A stretch of 54,416 nucleotides of DNA from contig JAXHVQ010000020.1 of assembly GCA_034189065.1 (NCBI GenBank), forward strand, positions 1 to 54,416. Direction: 5' to 3'. Positions 9,315-44,850 of the stretch are shown here, one piece after another (the stretch's first letter is position 1; each line of letters begins with the position of its first letter). Source of the DNA: Cyanobacteriota bacterium. GTDB lineage: Bacteria > Cyanobacteriota > Cyanobacteriia > Cyanobacteriales > Spirulinaceae. Under the pieces are notes generated by a model. It had not been told where the DNA came from and made no database searches. It worked only from the letters and a program-made list of their open reading frames with translations. The translations under genes and the position numbers were made by a program.

Positions 9315-9532
9315 ATTACCTCTCCTTACGGACAACTCACGGTCTTGAGGGAACCTCAAGACCCGTGTCCTTAAAAGAAGAGGATTGAAATTCAGGAAAA
9401 TCTATAATCGCGTCCGCACCTTGCTAGCTCCGTGAGACCTCAAGACCCGTATCATGCTCTTCCTTTACGAAGAGGTTTTAGACCCAATCAATTCATTATT
9501 CATTATTCATTATTCATTATTCATTATTCATT
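9315..9532. repeat. copy 2 of the ~150-bp structured element (with internal perfect hairpin gtcttgagg/cctcaagac) followed by ATTCATT heptamer x6
   Basis: shares 5' 28 nt and 3' ~60 nt with copy at 3411-3558. Confidence 0.7.
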
Positions 9533-17214: not shown

Positions 17215-17261
17215 GGGCAAAACCTTCACAGTATTTTCACGAGAACTTGCTAGACTAAGCT

Positions 17262-17331
17262 CCAACGTGCAAATGATTAGGTGTGCAAATCTTCAATCCC
17301 CTAACTCGACAACGAGCTGGGGACTTTTTTT
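17262..17331 (+). ncRNA. candidate sRNA copy A (divergent) with extended -10 TGcTAGACT and terminator
   Basis: TGnTAGACT box ~17247-17255; hairpin ccctaactcgacaacgagctgggg followed by T8. Confidence 0.45.
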
Positions 17332-17438
17332 TGCGCTCGCCTTTCCTCCCTCCTGAGATTTTCCCCATCCCAAAACTGATTGGTATTTTGAGCGCAAAAC
17401 TTCACGGTATTTTCACGAATATCTGTTAGACTCAGTTA

Positions 17439-17504
17439 AAGCGTACAGATGATAGGTGTGCAGACATTCATCCCCCAACTCAACAACGAGCGGGGACTTT
17501 TTTT
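17439..17504 (+). ncRNA. candidate sRNA copy B
   Basis: TGtTAGACT box ~17424-17432; conserved core GCGTACAGATGATAGGTGTGCAGACA; hairpin + T7. Confidence 0.5.
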
Positions 17505-17611
17505 GGCGATCGCCTCTCCTCCCTCCTGAGATTTTCCCCATCCCAAAACTGATTGGTATTTTGAGCGCAAAACTTCACGGTATTTTCACGAATATCTGTT
17601 AGACTCAGTTA

Positions 17612-17677
17612 AAGCGTACAGATGATAGGTGTGCAGACATTCATCCCCCAACTCGACAACGAGCGGGGACTTTTTTT
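17612..17677 (+). ncRNA. candidate sRNA copy C
   Basis: identical to copy B apart from 1-2 nt; TGtTAGACT box ~17597-17605; T7 at ~17671. Confidence 0.5.
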
Positions 17678-17782
17678 GGCGATCGCCTTCCTCCCTCCTG
17701 AGATTTCCCCCATCCCAAAACTGATTGCATTTTCAGCCTAAAACTTCACGGTATTTTCACGAGTATTTGTTAGACTCAGTTA

Positions 17783-17848
17783 AAGCGTACAGATGATAGG
17801 TGTGCAGACATTCATCCCCCAACTCGACAACGAGTGGGGACTTTTTTT
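17783..17848 (+). ncRNA. candidate sRNA copy D
   Basis: TGtTAGACT box ~17768-17776; hairpin cccccaactcgacaacgagtgggg + T7. Confidence 0.5.
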
Positions 17849-17929
17849 GCGATCGCCTCTCCTCCCTCCTGAGATTTTCCCCATCCCAAAACTTCACAGT
17901 ATTTTCACGATAGTCTGTCATACTTAATA

Positions 17930-29887: not shown

Positions 29888-29958
29888 GAAGCGAATCATT
29901 ATTCATTATTCATTATTCATTATTCATTATTCATTATTCATTATTCATTATTCATTAC
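29888..29958. repeat. CATTATT heptamer tandem repeat (~9-10 copies) immediately upstream of pyrR
   Basis: direct reading; same heptamer flanks the 150-bp elements at 3381 and 9487. Confidence 0.8.
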
Positions 29959-40826: not shown

Positions 40827-41198
40827 TTATCGTTTGAGAGAAAGGGGAAGATTAACGATTTGGTCGCAATATTCGTCGTCAAAGGCAGCTTTTGCAATTA
40901 AAATCAATTCTTTTAAATTTTCTCCAACACTCAAATCCGCTCCTAAAATTAAAATGCCTGGAATGTGACGACCCTCTGCCAGATGATCTGCTAAATGTAC
41001 CGGCATAGATTTCCGGTTGTTGGTGACGAGAATAAATTGATTGTCTTCGCACCAAACTAGAATTTCCGGATCTAGCGTTCCTTTGGGTGGCACGCCTGGA
41101 TCTCCGATGCTCCACATCGTGAAATTGGGCGCTTTTAGCAGAAATTGTTGGCGATAAACAGGATCGACATTTTCGTCTAAAAGGTATTTTATTGTCAT
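40827..41198 (-). CDS. DUF5615 (PIN-like) protein, second copy
   Basis: N-terminus MTIKYLLDENVDP is the canonical DUF5615 start. Confidence 0.75.
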   Translation of the reverse strand: MTIKYLLDENVDPVYRQQFLLKAPNFTMWSIGDPGVPPKGTLDPEILVWCEDNQFILVTNNRKSMPVHLADHLAEGRHIPGILILGADLSVGENLKELILIAKAAFDDEYCDQIVNLPLSLKR

Positions 41199-41338
41199 AA
41201 AGTCCTCCTTAATTTAAAAAAAACTGTCCAGAAAGAACAGCCTTAGATTAGGTTTACAATATTGAATTTTTACTTTCCTGCGATTATAGCAGAATTATTG
41301 AGTTTCAATGACGTATTTATTGTAAAATGATGTAAGTT

Positions 41339-41689
41339 TTAGCGCTCTACCTCCCGCTCTTGCGCTTTCTCCATTGCTTCTTGTTCTTCTTTAAATTTTA
41401 TCAATTTCTGAACGACGGGCGATGGATTCAGACGTTGCTCTTCGCGCACTTTTCGACTCCACTGCAACCAATCGGTAAGATAAGCAGTGACTTCCTCTTT
41501 ATTATGGAGATAATAAAGGACGGTCGCATAAACTTGCTCCAACGTCAAAGAGGGATAAGTTTGAGCGATTTGCTCGGGGGGGCGACTGCGATGAATAAAG
41601 TCATAGAGGACAGTCTCGATTCCAATTCTCGTTCCTTTCAGACGAATATCGTCAGGTCTTAAAAAGTTAAAGTAGTCTTCGAGTTGCAT
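41339..41689 (-). CDS. DUF433 domain protein, second copy
   Basis: 116 aa; DUF433 core (RIGIETVLYDF...YPSLTLEQVYATVLYY). Confidence 0.75.
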   Translation of the reverse strand: MQLEDYFNFLRPDDIRLKGTRIGIETVLYDFIHRSRPPEQIAQTYPSLTLEQVYATVLYYLHNKEEVTAYLTDWLQWSRKVREEQRLNPSPVVQKLIKFKEEQEAMEKAQEREVER

Positions 41690-41836: not shown

Positions 41837-44392
41837 TTGATGACGCTCAATCGTCTTGTTCCAACGCTTAACCCCAACGTCACCGAGGAAATTCGCGTTT
41901 TTGGGACGGTACAAGGGGTTGGCTTTCGGCCAACAGTTTACCGCCTTGCTAACGAATGCGGGTTGTGCGGCGAGGTGAGTAATGATGGGTCGGGGGTGTT
42001 AATTTTAGTTACAGGCGATCGCGAAACCCTTGACAATTTTGTCCAGCGATTACAGCAAGAACAGCCGCCGCTGGCTAACATTGAATCCATTGTCCGTCGG
42101 CAGGACCGCGATCGCAACTTTTCCAATTTTCGCATCATTTCCAGCACGCCCAGTGCCATCCGCACTCAAATTGCCCCCGATGCAGCCACCTGTCCCGCCT
42201 GCAAAGGGGAAACCTTCGATGCTTCCAGCCGTTGGTATCGCTACCCCTTCACCAACTGCACCCACTGCGGCCCTCGTTTGAGTTTAATCCAAAAACTGCC
42301 CTACGATCGCGCCAACACCAGCATGGCTGCTTTTACCCTCTGTCCCGGCTGCCAGCAGGACTACGAAACCCCCACCAACCGACGCTTTCACGCCCAACCG
42401 ACAGCTTGTCCAACCTGCGGCCCTCGCGTTTGGTTAGAACGCGCCGACGGTAATCCTTGCAACCTTTCCCACTCTGACGCGATAAGTGCCGTTTTGCCGC
42501 TGCTGCAAGGGGGAAATATTGTTGCGATTAAAGGGTTGGGCGGCTTTCACCTTGCCTGCGACGCGACTAATGCAGAAGTCGTTGGGAAATTGCGCGATCG
42601 CAAACATCGTCCCGATAAACCTTTAGCATTAATGGCGCGCGATGTCAAGGTTATTTCTCAATGTTGTCTCTTAACAGAAGCAGAAAAAGAACTCCTGCAA
42701 AGTTCCGCCGCCCCCATTGTTTTGTTGAAAAAGAAAGAAGAATGCGATCGCGCGTTTATTCTTCCCGAAAATATCGCGCCGGGACTCAATATTGTGGGTT
42801 TCATGCTGCCGTATACTCCCCTCCATCATCTCCTAATGGAAAATTGCGATCGCCCCCTCGTTTTCACCAGCGGCAATCGTTCGGGGGAACCTCAGTGTAT
42901 CGGTAACGAAGAAGCACGACAAAAATTAAGTCAAATTGCCGACTATTTTCTCTTGCACAATCGCGAAATTATTAATCGAATCGATGATTCTGTCGCGCGC
43001 GTTATTCTATTGGGAAAGGTAGAGGGCAGAGGGCAGAAGGCAGAAGGGGAGGGAACTATAAATAAGAAGGAGGAAAGTTATGGAGTTGAAAGAAGGAAAA
43101 AAAGTGCGAGTGAATGCAAAATCAACTCTGCAACAAATATTTTTTTAACCCATAAAGCTCAATCCTCGAAAAGCGATCGAATCCAAATTTTGCGACGCGC
43201 TAGGGGATACGCCCCCGCCCCCATTTCTCTTCCACCGGGTTTTGAGAAAGCGTCGCCAATTTTGGCAATGGGAAGCGAGTTGAAAAATACCTTTTGTTTG
43301 CTACGACAAGGACAAGCTATTCTTTCGCAACACTTAGGCGATTTAGAAAATGCGTCGGCTTCCCGAGCTTATCAAGAATCCCTCAACTTATACTTACAGC
43401 TTTTCGAGCATCAACCGACAACTATCGCCATCGATCGACATCCCGAATACCAGTCGAGCAAACTTGGAAAAGAACTCGCTTGCGCTAACTCTCTCAACCT
43501 TGAAATTGTCCAACATCACCACGCCCATGTTGCTGCTTGTATGGCCGATAATGGCATATCTTTAGACGCACCGCCCGTTTTAGGAATTGCTTTAGATGGA
43601 TTGGGATACGGCGAAGATGGTATATTATGGGGAGGAGAATTTTTATTGGCGGATTATCGGAACTTTCAGCGTTTGGCAACGTTTAAACCCATTACAATGT
43701 TAGGAGGAGAACAGGCAATTTATCAGCCGTGGCGCAGTACCTACGCGCATTTGAGAGAAGCTGGCATAATGCCTTCCCTAGCCAAGAGAGTTGGGGGAAA
43801 GGGAAATTTGGAACTGTTTCGATTTCTACAGCAAAAACCTCTAAAAATTCTCGATCGCATGGCAGAAAAAAGAATTAACTCGCCCCTTGCATCGTCCTGC
43901 GGGCGGTTGTTTGACGCGGTTGCAGCGGCGATGGGAATTTGTCGGGAGTCGTGTCATTATGAGGGACAAGGGGCAATGCAACTGGAAACGCTAGCTTATG
44001 GCTATATCTTAAACAACTCTGAAGAAATTGAGAGTTATCCTTTTAGTGTGGGACAAATAGAAGGTGTCCAATTGCCTTATCTCGAACCGCAGCCGATGTG
44101 GGAGGTGTTACTGGACGATTTATACGAGGGAACAGACCTTTCGTTGATAGCGGCAAAATTTCACCTCGGTTTAGCGGATGCGATCGCGGCAATGGTTTCT
44201 TTCCTTCAAAATTGCGTATCATTTTGTCAAGTGGTTCTGACAGGAGGAGTTTTTCAAAACTATATCTTATTAAAGTTAGTCCGCGATCGCCTCGAATCTC
44301 AAAAACTCGAGGTGCTAACCCATCGTCAAGTTCCCCCCAACGACGGCGGTTTATCCCTCGGACAAGGCGCGATCGCTTGCGCGAGACAGTAA
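41837..44392 (+). CDS. hypF: [NiFe]-hydrogenase maturation carbamoyltransferase HypF
   Basis: acylphosphatase domain, two CxxC...CxxC zinc fingers, YrdC and Kae1-like domains; carries ~55-60 aa in-frame low-complexity insertion. Confidence 0.9.
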   Translation: MMTLNRLVPTLNPNVTEEIRVFGTVQGVGFRPTVYRLANECGLCGEVSNDGSGVLILVTGDRETLDNFVQRLQQEQPPLANIESIVRRQDRDRNFSNFRIISSTPSAIRTQIAPDAATCPACKGETFDASSRWYRYPFTNCTHCGPRLSLIQKLPYDRANTSMAAFTLCPGCQQDYETPTNRRFHAQPTACPTCGPRVWLERADGNPCNLSHSDAISAVLPLLQGGNIVAIKGLGGFHLACDATNAEVVGKLRDRKHRPDKPLALMARDVKVISQCCLLTEAEKELLQSSAAPIVLLKKKEECDRAFILPENIAPGLNIVGFMLPYTPLHHLLMENCDRPLVFTSGNRSGEPQCIGNEEARQKLSQIADYFLLHNREIINRIDDSVARVILLGKVEGRGQKAEGEGTINKKEESYGVERRKKSASECKINSATNIFLTHKAQSSKSDRIQILRRARGYAPAPISLPPGFEKASPILAMGSELKNTFCLLRQGQAILSQHLGDLENASASRAYQESLNLYLQLFEHQPTTIAIDRHPEYQSSKLGKELACANSLNLEIVQHHHAHVAACMADNGISLDAPPVLGIALDGLGYGEDGILWGGEFLLADYRNFQRLATFKPITMLGGEQAIYQPWRSTYAHLREAGIMPSLAKRVGGKGNLELFRFLQQKPLKILDRMAEKRINSPLASSCGRLFDAVAAAMGICRESCHYEGQGAMQLETLAYGYILNNSEEIESYPFSVGQIEGVQLPYLEPQPMWEVLLDDLYEGTDLSLIAAKFHLGLADAIAAMVSFLQNCVSFCQVVLTGGVFQNYILLKLVRDRLESQKLEVLTHRQVPPNDGGLSLGQGAIACARQ
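43015..43190 (+). other. AT/purine-rich in-frame insertion within hypF (GAGGGCAGA repeats; contains out-of-frame SD+ATG mini-ORF MELKEGKKVRVNAKSTLQQIFF)
   Basis: local composition shift; conserved HypF DDSV...RRARGYAP segment split by extra residues. Confidence 0.5.
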
Positions 44393-44450
44393 GTATTAAT
44401 TTGGTTGCAAACGGTTCCGCGTAGGCCAATTTCAACTCTTTCTATTCTCC

Positions 44451-44850
44451 CTTTCTGGGGACATGGCGGAGAGTAATATTATTATGTTGAACTTAAACAA
44501 GCGAAAATGCCGCATTTCTACTTCTTTCCTTCTGGGGACACGGCGAAAAGCAATATGATGATGTTGAACTTAAACAAGGGAAAATGCCGCATTTCTACTT
44601 CTTTCCTTCTGGGGACACGGCGAAAAGCAATATGATGATATTGAACTTAAACAAGGGAAAATGCCGCATTCCTACTTCTTTCCTTCTGGGGACACGGCGA
44701 AAAGCAATATGATGATATTGAACTTAAACAAGGGAAAATGCCGCATTCCTACTTCTTCCCTTCTGGGGACACGGCGAAAAGCAATATGATGATATTGAAC
44801 TTAAACTGAGAAAATGCCGCGTCCCTACTTCTCCCCTTCTGAACCCCTCA
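44451..44850 (+). repeat. five tandem copies of a ~78-bp repeat between hypF and hypC
   Basis: unit CTTCTGGGGACACGGCGAAAAGCAATATGATGATATTGAACTTAAACAAGGGAAAATGCCGCATTCCTACTTCTTTC; starts ~44451, 44528, 44606, 44684, 44760. Confidence 0.85.

What the first reader, a model, noticed from the sequence alone, without database searches (positions are those of the whole stretch)
43015..43190. In-frame AT/purine-rich insertion inside hypF
Between the conserved HypF segments ...DDSVARVILLGK and ILRRARGYAP the gene carries about 55-60 extra low-complexity residues (VEGRGQKAEGEGTINKKEESYGVERRKKSASECKINSATNIFLTHKAQSSKSD). The DNA here contains GAGGGCAGA-type repeats, a sharp local drop in GC, and in the +2 frame a strong AAGGAGG Shine-Dalgarno sequence 6 nt upstream of an ATG that opens a 22-codon mini-ORF. 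It looks like captured foreign or mobile DNA that HypF tolerates because it stays in frame inside the interdomain linker.
Basis: partly seen in the sequence, partly recalled or inferred. Interest (0 to 1): 0.55.

Follow-up and report, generated by a model that had tools for sequence, protein, structure and literature searches.

The report
Repeat-derived loop insertion in HypF
A cyanobacterial hydrogenase-maturation gene (hypF) carries a 55-codon in-frame insertion that begins with a typical cyanobacterial 7-base tandem repeat and sits in a surface hairpin where many relatives carry their own unrelated insertions; it is most likely a tolerated passenger loop, not a functional or demonstrably mobile element.

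Summary
hypF (41837-44392, +) has all five HypF domains. It carries 55 extra codons (about 43010-43174) between DDSVARVI and RIQILRRARGYAP. The baseline linker is 6 aa in 57 of 117 nearest homologues and 3-7 aa in solved HypF structures.

The insert has two parts:
- A four-unit heptamer array (AAGGTAG AGGGCAG AGGGCAG AAGGCAG) that matches intergenic arrays on Nostocales plasmids at 34 of 35 bases.
- About 127 nt of AT- and purine-rich DNA (35% GC) that matched nothing convincingly in any collection searched.

It is the most purine-rich 165-nt stretch of the window. It is stop-free only in the hypF frame. AlphaFold models it as an unstructured loop between two strands.

The same hairpin is an insertion hotspot. 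60 of 117 homologues have extra residues there, and inserts of 13 aa or more fall into 12 unrelated groups. Six of these were read as DNA and proved to be heptamer arrays, a dispersed repeat or hairpin repeats.

I found no terminal inverted repeats, no target duplication, no second copy in 54 kb and no RNA family. So "tolerated in-frame DNA in a permissive linker" is supported, while "foreign or mobile" is not shown. The AAGGAGG-ATG mini-ORF exists but has no support as a gene. Low interest: a new example of a known cyanobacterial phenomenon.

The parts
41837..44392 (+). hypF (carbamoyltransferase HypF), 851 codons, intact reading frame across the insertion
   Evidence: Five Pfam HypF domains match. 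100% identical to P0001, 'carbamoyltransferase HypF [Cyanobacteriota bacterium]'. All columns invariant across 50 HypFs are kept.
42983..43009 (+). Conserved end of the YrdC-like domain (DDSVARVIL), the strand that precedes the insertion
   Evidence: The DDSV motif is aligned in all homologues. Strand 385-389 in the model. The PDB alignment ends at residue 386/387.
43010..43174 (+). The insertion: 165 nt, 55 codons (LGKVEGRGQKAEGEGTINKKEESYGVERRKKSASECKINSATNIFLTHKAQSSKS). Boundaries are uncertain by a few codons.
   Evidence: MAFFT insertion zone after P0001 residue 390. Purine 70%, GC 40.6%. pLDDT below 50 and no secondary structure for residues 392-444. Peptide is 35% charged and 16% hydrophobic.
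43016..43047 (+). Heptamer tandem array: AAGGTAG AGGGCAG AGGGCAG AAGGCAG, then a partial AAGG
   Evidence: TRF period 7, 4.6 copies, 88% matches. Units in register. 34 of 35 identical to an intergenic array on a Tolypothrix PCC 7910 plasmid, and similar to one on Nostoc PCC 7120 pCC7120alpha.
43024..43053 (+). G-quadruplex-like motif on the sense strand (GGG-N4-GGG-N12-GGGG-N1-GGG). Sequence pattern only.
   Evidence: Regular-expression match. Context: G-rich heptamer repeats of Nostoc prefer four units and form G4 in vitro (PMC4692102). Not tested here.
43048..43174 (+). Non-repetitive AT- and purine-rich remainder of the insert (35% GC, 66% purine), origin unknown
   Evidence: No 7-nt periodicity. 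No second copy in the window. No significant hits in plasmids or phages. Two 22-mers absent from genome contigs. No Rfam match.
43067..43073 (+). Shine-Dalgarno-like AAGGAGG, 6 nt upstream of ATG 43080
   Evidence: Sequence. The strict motif appears in 1.2% of dinucleotide shuffles and three times in the whole window.
43080..43148 (+). 22-codon mini-ORF MELKEGKKVRVNAKSTLQQIFF* in frame +1 relative to hypF. No support as a gene.
   Evidence: Translation. Only non-significant Pfam matches (DUF3221, E = 0.095; YneP, E = 0.39), far below their curated cut-offs. The 24-mer 43074-43097 is identical to part of a gyrA C-terminal blade in an unrelated metagenome contig, with unrelated flanks.
43175..43216 (+). 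Conserved start of the Kae1-like domain (DRIQILRRARGYAP), the strand that follows the insertion
   Evidence: Motif present in all homologues. Strand 447-452 in the model. The PDB alignment resumes at residue 449.

Best explanation
This is a lineage-specific in-frame insertion of host-type, non-coding-like DNA into the turn of the beta-hairpin that joins the YrdC-like and Kae1-like domains of HypF.

Shown:
- The insert starts with a four-unit G-rich heptamer array of the kind that normally lies between genes in filamentous cyanobacteria.
- It continues with about 127 nt of AT- and purine-rich DNA that has no detectable relative.
- The loop is a site where many cyanobacterial HypFs carry their own unrelated repeat-derived inserts.
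- The insert is open only in the hypF frame.

Inferred:
- The DNA arrived by illegitimate recombination or repeat-associated insertion, possibly helped by the purine-rich native sequence TTGGGAAAGG, which resembles the array unit.
- It survived because, among all such events, only in-frame, stop-free ones in this exposed turn leave HypF working.
- It is translated as a roughly 55-residue hydrophilic disordered loop with no role of its own.
- The Shine-Dalgarno-ATG mini-ORF is a relic or by-product of the purine-rich sequence, not a gene.
For: - Insert size and position against homologues and solved structures.
- Hotspot: 60 of 117 homologues exceed the 6-aa baseline. The 42 inserts of 13 aa or more form 12 unrelated groups, and the window's insert is a singleton.
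- DNA of other inserts at the same site: a perfect (AATCCAA)x6 array (L002); G-rich heptamers plus (ACCAATT)x3.9 (L011); a dispersed repeat with copies in the flanks (L005); a 22-nt palindrome (L003); a nested hairpin repeat (L009) and a 12-nt repeat (L010).
- The window's array is near-identical to intergenic arrays on Nostocales plasmids.
- All other period-7 arrays in the window lie between ORFs or at their edges.
- Selection for an open frame: stop-free in 1.2-3.8% of shuffles, while the other sense frames have 3 and 4 stops.
- The gene is otherwise intact, keeps all invariant residues and sits in a hypF-hypC-hypD cluster.
- The model shows a loop with pLDDT below 50 and no secondary structure between two strands. 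The peptide is 35% charged and 16% hydrophobic.
Against: - The origin of the right 127 nt is unknown, so 'host-type non-coding DNA' is inferred from composition and architecture only.
- The strict SD-ATG motif is somewhat unlikely by chance (1.2% of shuffles). This hints at capture of a real gene start, or at function.
- The AlphaFold model is mediocre overall (mean pLDDT 65.7), and residues 346-384 next to the insert are also low, so the structural argument is soft.
- No close relative (more than 64% identity) exists in the databases, so the age and polymorphism of the insert are unknown.
- HypF activity with the insert has not been tested.
Confidence: 0.68

Rival explanations
1. The whole 165 nt is one copy of a small non-autonomous mobile or dispersed element (MITE- or SDR-like) of this genome that happened to land in frame.
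For: - In Coleofasciculus the insert at the same site is a dispersed repeat, with copies in the 10-kb flanks.
- On a Tolypothrix plasmid the same heptamer array occurs as an inverted pair 129 nt apart, an element-like architecture of similar size.
- The rest of this genome could not be searched, because the MAG is not in genome contigs.
Against: - No inverted partner array and no terminal inverted repeats.
- No direct repeat at the insert boundaries.
- No second copy in 54 kb.
- No similar sequence in plasmids, phages, genome or metagenome collections beyond the array itself.
Confidence: 0.12
2. The insert arose entirely in place. Slippage expanded a native purine-rich heptamer into a long array, and most of that array has since decayed by point mutation.
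For: - In L002 the array (AATCCAA)x6 clearly grew out of the native codons for K-I-Q.
- The native sequence before the window's array (TTGGGAAAGG; CTGGGTAAGG in the closest relative, L001) resembles the unit.
Against: - The right 127 nt shows no residual 7-, 14- or 21-nt periodicity (p = 0.23-0.71 against shuffles).
- Its composition differs from the array: 35% against 59% GC.
Confidence: 0.1
3. The insert is functional. Candidate roles: an adaptive surface loop, a translational pause site (SD-like sequence or G-quadruplex) at the domain boundary, an internal start for the mini-ORF, or a slippage-prone heptamer tract that switches hypF on and off.
For: - The strict SD-ATG motif is rare: 1.2% of shuffles and three in the window.
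- There is a G4-like motif with four G-tracts (context in PMC4692102).
- A unit length of 7 means a change of one unit frameshifts the gene.
- The position is exactly at a domain junction.
Against: - No conservation: the insert is a singleton among 12 unrelated groups, and about half of the relatives have no insert at all.
- The array is imperfect, with at most two identical adjacent units, so slippage should be rare.
- There is no in-frame start that would make a separate Kae1-like product.
- The mini-ORF has only non-significant Pfam matches (best E = 0.095), and the exhaustive search of the hypF-frame insert peptide found no homologue. The mini-ORF peptide itself was queried only, which failed their positive control.
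- No promoter or terminator and no Rfam family.
Confidence: 0.05
4. Assembly artefact: a chimeric join or mis-assembled repeat in a metagenome-assembled contig.
For: - The contig comes from a MAG and is the only record of this protein (1 member, 1 contig).
- Short tandem repeats are error-prone in assembly.
Against: - A random 165-nt chimera would be in frame and stop-free in only about 1% of cases (one in three for frame, times 1.2-3.8%).
- It sits exactly at the loop where relatives from isolate genomes also carry inserts, such as Pleurocapsa PCC 7327 and Coleofasciculus PCC 7420.
Confidence: 0.03

Closest known systems
STRR-type heptanucleotide tandem repeats of filamentous cyanobacteria, first described in Calothrix PCC 7601 (cited in PMC4692102), and the G-rich heptamer repeats of Nostoc PCC 7120 (Rehm et al. 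2015, PMC4692102)
   Same: - Tandem 7-nt units, G-rich, four units.
- The same unit and order (AAGGCAG AGGGCAG AGGGCAG AAGGCAG AAGG) as arrays on Nostocales plasmids.
- The window contains 11 other period-7 arrays.
   Different: - Those arrays are reported as over-represented in non-coding DNA and under-represented in coding regions (PMC4692102). This one lies 1.2 kb inside a conserved gene and is translated.
- No other array of this particular unit occurs in the 54-kb window.
Small dispersed repeats (SDR) and other very small mobile repeats of cyanobacterial genomes (Elhai et al. 2008, Genome Res 18:1484; seen only as reference 20 of PMC5861425, and the paper could not be opened)
   Same: Short host-specific repeats that invade many sites, including nested insertions. 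Inserts at the same HypF loop in Coleofasciculus and Stanieria look like this.
   Different: For the window's insert no dispersal, hairpin or second copy could be shown. What I say about SDRs rests on my own recollection of that paper.
Solved HypF structures: 3VTH/3VTI (Caldanaerobacter subterraneus), 3TSP/3TSQ/3TSU/3TTC/3TTD/3TTF (E. coli), 4G9I (organism names from my own knowledge, not returned by the tool)
   Same: Same domain order and conserved motifs on both sides of the site (E = 1e-151 to 1e-169).
   Different: They have 3-7 residues at the YrdC-Kae1 junction where the window has 61.
Simple-sequence-repeat contingency loci (phase variation by slippage in coding repeats, e.g. Haemophilus; PMC8262952 and PMC12721329 appeared)
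   Same: A tandem repeat inside an ORF whose unit length is not a multiple of three.
   Different: The tract here is short and imperfect. There are no population data. HypF is a housekeeping maturation enzyme, not a surface antigen.
MITEs (for example cyanobacterial Nezha; own knowledge)
   Same: Size class of 100-200 nt, AT-rich, non-coding.
   Different: No terminal inverted repeats, no target-site duplication and no additional copies were found.

Membership tests
HypF carbamoyltransferase | Domain order: acylphosphatase, two Zn-finger motifs, YrdC/Sua5-like, Kae1-like (HypF_C, HypF_C_2) | tested here: met
   All five Pfam families are well above their cut-offs. E = 1e-151 to 1e-169 to solved HypFs.
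HypF carbamoyltransferase | Conserved catalytic and structural residues retained | tested here: met
   The query keeps every column that is invariant across 50 cyanobacterial HypFs.
HypF carbamoyltransferase | Genomic association with other hyp genes | tested here: met
   hypC (PF01455, 7e-25) and hypD (PF01924, 3e-162) lie immediately downstream. The order is the same in relatives.
STRR / heptamer tandem repeats of cyanobacteria | Head-to-tail 7-nt units | tested here: met
   TRF period 7, 4.6 copies, 88% matches at 43016-43047. Four units in register.
STRR / heptamer tandem repeats of cyanobacteria | The same unit recurs at many loci in cyanobacterial genomes | tested here: met
   70 plasmid records hit, at least 37 of them cyanobacterial and mostly Nostocales. 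All ten listed rows cover only the array end of the query (within positions 1-56), and a separate search with 43048-43180 alone gave no significant or cyanobacterial hit. 34 of 35 identical to Tolypothrix PCC 7910.
STRR / heptamer tandem repeats of cyanobacteria | Dispersed copies of this unit in the same genome | tested here: inconclusive
   There is no other array of this unit in the 54-kb window. The rest of the genome was not available.
STRR / heptamer tandem repeats of cyanobacteria | Location in non-coding DNA | tested here: not met
   The array lies 1.2 kb inside hypF and is translated. The other 11 period-7 arrays in the window are intergenic or at ORF edges.
MITE / small transposable element | Terminal inverted repeats | tested here: not met
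   No inverted repeat pairs the two ends of the insert.
MITE / small transposable element | Target-site duplication at the boundaries | tested here: not met
   The only flanking direct repeat (ATCGAATC, 42975 and 43176) lies 35 nt outside the left boundary, and both copies are native codons.
MITE / small transposable element | Multiple copies in the genome | tested here: inconclusive
   None in the window or in public collections. The source genome itself was not searchable.
Intein | At least ~130 residues, N-terminal Cys/Ser, C-terminal His-Asn followed by Cys/Ser/Thr | tested here: not met
   55 residues starting with L-G-K and ending with S-K-S-D-R. No Pfam domain.
Structured RNA element or intron | Match to a known RNA family, or a significantly stable fold | tested here: not met
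   Best Rfam E-values are 1.2-6.6, far below gathering scores. Fold z-scores are -1.84 (+ strand) and +0.81 (- strand).
SSR contingency locus | Long perfect repeat tract inside the ORF, with a unit length not divisible by 3 | tested here: not met
   The unit is 7 nt, but there are only four units with three sequence variants and at most two identical neighbours.
SSR contingency locus | Repeat-number polymorphism within the population | not testable with these tools
   Only one contig encodes this protein, and there is no access to reads.

The most novel reading that the evidence does not exclude
The YrdC-Kae1 hairpin of cyanobacterial HypF may be more than a permissive loop. It could be a preferred landing or seeding site for heptamer and hairpin repeats. 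In-frame heptamer arrays there, such as the perfect (AATCCAA)x6 in one relative and the degenerate array here, could then act or have acted as slippage switches that turn hydrogenase maturation off and on within a population.
Probability: 0.05. Interest if true: 0.55.

Novelty: new member of a known kind. Interest (0 to 1): 0.25.

Why it matters
- It adds a clear example of cyanobacterial repeat DNA remodelling a conserved enzyme without breaking it.
- It identifies a naturally permissive site in HypF that tolerates up to about 70 extra residues. That is useful for tagging or engineering.
- It is also a warning for alignment and annotation: the extra segment should not be read as a domain.
- It does not change what is known about hydrogenase maturation.

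Tried and rejected
1. Dispersed-repeat origin inside the window. blastn-short of 43000-43200 against the window gave only chance 9-14-mers.
2. Finding the source genome or other copies. Two 22-mers from the insert are absent from genome contigs, so the MAG is not in that collection.
3. Metagenome scan. One 24-mer hit one JGI contig, inside the last C-terminal blade of a gyrA. The flanks are unrelated and there is no further similarity. I judge this a chance match of a purine-rich coding-like word. The GyrA C-terminal profile does not match the mini-ORF peptide.
4. Six-frame protein searches of the insert with the search for homologous proteins. They returned nothing, but they also failed to return P0001, which contains the query exactly. 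I treat these as uninformative.
5. Exhaustive HMMER search of the peptide against 1.84 billion representatives. The one hit, at E = 9e-4, is a seven-fold tandem repeat protein that matches through 'SSKSD', so it is spurious.
6. Plasmid and phage BLAST of the non-repeat part. Nothing below E = 0.3.
7. RNA element. No Rfam family, no significant fold, no promoter or terminator.
8. A conserved DNA hairpin next to the site as the cause of the hotspot. The 14/16 inverted repeat 43183-43198 / 43250-43265 is absent from eight other hypF loci, so I rejected this.
9. Residual heptamer periodicity in the right part. None.
10. Intein, intron or split gene. Rejected on size, termini and the lack of any in-frame restart.
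11. Literature. No paper in the held library describes this HypF hotspot. Elhai et al. 2008 could not be opened.
Full report
**What is there.** The window is cyanobacterial. It is rich in GCGATCGC-type words and in heptamer tandem repeats. The ORF at 41837-44392 is 100% identical to a protein named carbamoyltransferase HypF from a Cyanobacteriota MAG, whose longest contig is exactly as long as the window, 54,416 bases. This ORF has the full HypF architecture: acylphosphatase, HypF zinc fingers, Sua5/YrdC-like, HypF_C and HypF_C_2. hypC and hypD follow it, the same order as in eight relatives' loci. The gene keeps every residue that is invariant in an alignment of 50 cyanobacterial HypFs.

Between DDSVARVI and LRRARGYAP the protein has 61 residues.
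- Among 117 of the nearest homologues with both motifs, 57 have exactly 6 residues there.
- MAFFT puts 55 extra residues after residue 390 of P0001, which is window 43010-43174.
- Against solved HypFs the HMMER alignment breaks exactly at this point. It leaves 61 query residues opposite 7 in 3VTH and 3 in 3TSP.

The DNA starts with four heptamer units in register: AAGGTAG AGGGCAG AGGGCAG AAGGCAG (TRF 43016-43047). The insert is 70% purine against 49% for the rest of the gene. It is the purine maximum of all 165-nt windows on the + strand. GC is 40.6% against 49.2%. Only the non-repeat part (35% GC) is unusual, with its lowest 100-nt window in the lowest 3%. AAGGAGG (43067-43073), a 6-nt spacer, ATG (43080) and a 22-codon ORF ending at 43148 are all present.

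**More than chance?** Three results bear on this.
- Only 1.2% (mononucleotide) to 3.8% (dinucleotide) of shuffles of the insert are stop-free in the hypF frame. The two other sense frames have 3 and 4 stops. So the open frame reflects survival under selection for a working hypF.
- The strict SD-ATG motif appears in 1.2% of shuffles and only three times in the window on both strands. It is mildly unexpected but not decisive.
- The looser GGAGG-N4-10-ATG appears in 5% of shuffles.

**The site is a hotspot.**
- Of the 117 homologues, 19 have 7-12 residues, 22 have 13-30 and 19 have more than 30, up to 70.
- The 42 inserts of 13 residues or more (41 homologues plus the window's own) fall into 12 groups with no similarity to each other. 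The window's insert is a singleton.
- It is the main internal insertion zone of the protein: 20 of 50 aligned sequences have 5 or more extra residues there. The next zones have 15, 8 and 7.

Reading the DNA of six other inserts showed what fills the loop:
- a perfect (AATCCAA)x6 array that grew out of the native K-I-Q codons (L002);
- G-rich heptamers plus (ACCAATT)x3.9 (L011);
- a duplicated element with further copies in the 10-kb flanks, in Coleofasciculus (L005);
- a 22-nt perfect palindrome in Pleurocapsa PCC 7327 (L003);
- a hairpin repeat with a second sequence nested inside it (L009);
- a 12-nt tandem repeat (L010).

So cyanobacterial repeat DNA has entered this loop many times independently.

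**Why the loop tolerates it.** The AlphaFold model is built on 50 sequences and is of only moderate quality (mean pLDDT 65.7, pTM 0.55). It has strands at 385-389 and 447-452. Residues 392-444 between them have no secondary structure and a pLDDT of 26-33. The inserted peptide is 35% charged and 16% hydrophobic. From the solved structures the two flanking strands are only 3-7 residues apart. That is the geometry of a hairpin turn, where an excursion of any length can leave and return without disturbing the fold. This last step is inference. The model's low confidence at 346-384 weakens the structural support.

**Origin of the DNA.** The left 35 nt belongs to a family of arrays common in cyanobacteria.
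- BLAST against plasmids hit 70 records, at least 37 of them Nostocales and other cyanobacteria. The rows listed cover only the array end of the query and have no annotated gene under the match.
- The array on a Tolypothrix PCC 7910 plasmid is identical at 34 of 35 positions. There it lies just after one gene, with an inverted partner array 129 nt away just before the next gene.
- On pCC7120alpha a similar array is intergenic.
- Because slippage can produce the same array repeatedly, this identity shows shared type, not shared descent.
- In the window the other 11 period-7 arrays lie between ORFs or at their edges.
- Rehm et al. report such G-rich heptamers as under-represented in coding regions and as preferring four units (PMC4692102).

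The right 127 nt is an orphan.
- It has no 7-nt periodicity and no second copy in the window.
- There are no inverted repeats or boundary duplications.
- Nothing turned up in plasmids or phages. Two 22-mers are absent from 596 Gb of genomes. There is no Rfam family and no peptide homologue in 1.84 billion representatives.
- One 24-mer matches a gyrA C-terminal blade in an unrelated metagenome contig, in the reading frame of the mini-ORF. The flanks do not match and the GyrA profile does not match the peptide. I regard this as chance.
- The arrangement of array, about 20 nt, SD, then ATG resembles a cyanobacterial intergenic region ahead of a gene, as in L007. Capture of such a piece is plausible but unproven.

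**Comparison with the closest relative.** P0002 is 64% identical by BLASTP and 71% over the columns of alignment A1. Its 12-residue linker is PSPLGKGGQLQI, and its DNA CTGGGTAAGGGGGGTCAA resembles the window's TTGGGAAAGGTAGAGGGCAG. The ancestor may already have had a short purine-rich extension here. That extension could have seeded the array or offered microhomology for it. This is inference from a distant relative.

**Verdict.** The idea that HypF tolerates extra in-frame DNA at an interdomain turn is well supported. The word 'foreign' is not: the recognisable part is typical host repeat DNA. 'Mobile' remains untested, because the rest of the genome was not available and no transposon hallmarks are present. 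The mini-ORF has no support as a gene.

The finding is an ordinary, if neat, example of repeat-derived loop insertion in a cyanobacterial protein. The recurrent use of this one HypF hairpin by unrelated repeats is the most interesting by-product, and I found no description of it in the held literature.

The most novel reading is targeted insertion or heptamer-slippage switching of hypF. I put it at about 5%, because the array here is short and imperfect and about half of the relatives lack any insert.

Noticed in passing
window 26766-27298: CRISPR-like array. TRF reports a period of 143, which is two repeat-plus-spacer units. The repeat begins GTTTCAATCCCTCAAAGGGATTAAGGAG.
   Followed up: no
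window 44445-44841: A 77-nt unit repeated 5.2 times at 94% identity fills the spacer between hypF and hypC. No Rfam family matches it. In Coleofasciculus (L005 12601-12692) the same spacer also holds short tandem repeats.
   Followed up: partly
window 17217-17893 and 51575-51828: Two more long tandem repeats: 173 nt x3.9 at 92% identity, and 110 nt x2.3 at 97% identity. The second lies next to a tRNA gene at 51403-51476.
   Followed up: no
window, 12 sites (e.g. 1711-1778 TTGGTCA x9.7; 9491-9532 ATTCATT x6; 29896-29957 TCATTAT x8.9): The window has many period-7 tandem arrays with different units. All except the hypF array lie between ORFs of 150 aa or more, or at their very edges.
   Followed up: partly
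L002 6192-6240 (hypF encoding P0092, GCA_031976635.1): A perfect in-frame (AATCCAA)x6 array sits at the same HypF loop, grown out of the native K-I-Q codons. Gaining or losing one unit would frameshift hypF, so it is a better candidate for slippage switching than the window's array.
   Followed up: partly
window 43183-43198 and 43250-43265: A 16-nt inverted repeat (14 of 16 complementary, 51 nt apart) lies inside hypF just after the insert, formed by the codons for QILRR and ASPIL. It is absent from eight other hypF loci, so it is probably chance.
   Followed up: yes
L006 5982-6005 (JGI contig Ga0207421_10000202): This is the only public exact match to a 24-mer of the insert. It lies in the last C-terminal blade of a gyrA and encodes KVMELKEG in the same frame as the window's mini-ORF. 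The flanks are unrelated.
   Followed up: yes
window 40827-41689 (- strand): A DUF433 protein and a DUF5615 (PIN-like) protein are adjacent just upstream of hypF. This looks like a toxin-antitoxin-type pair.
   Followed up: no
tool behaviour: the search for homologous proteins, queried with the insert peptide, did not return P0001, which contains that peptide exactly. Its negatives for short low-complexity queries should not be trusted.
   Followed up: partly
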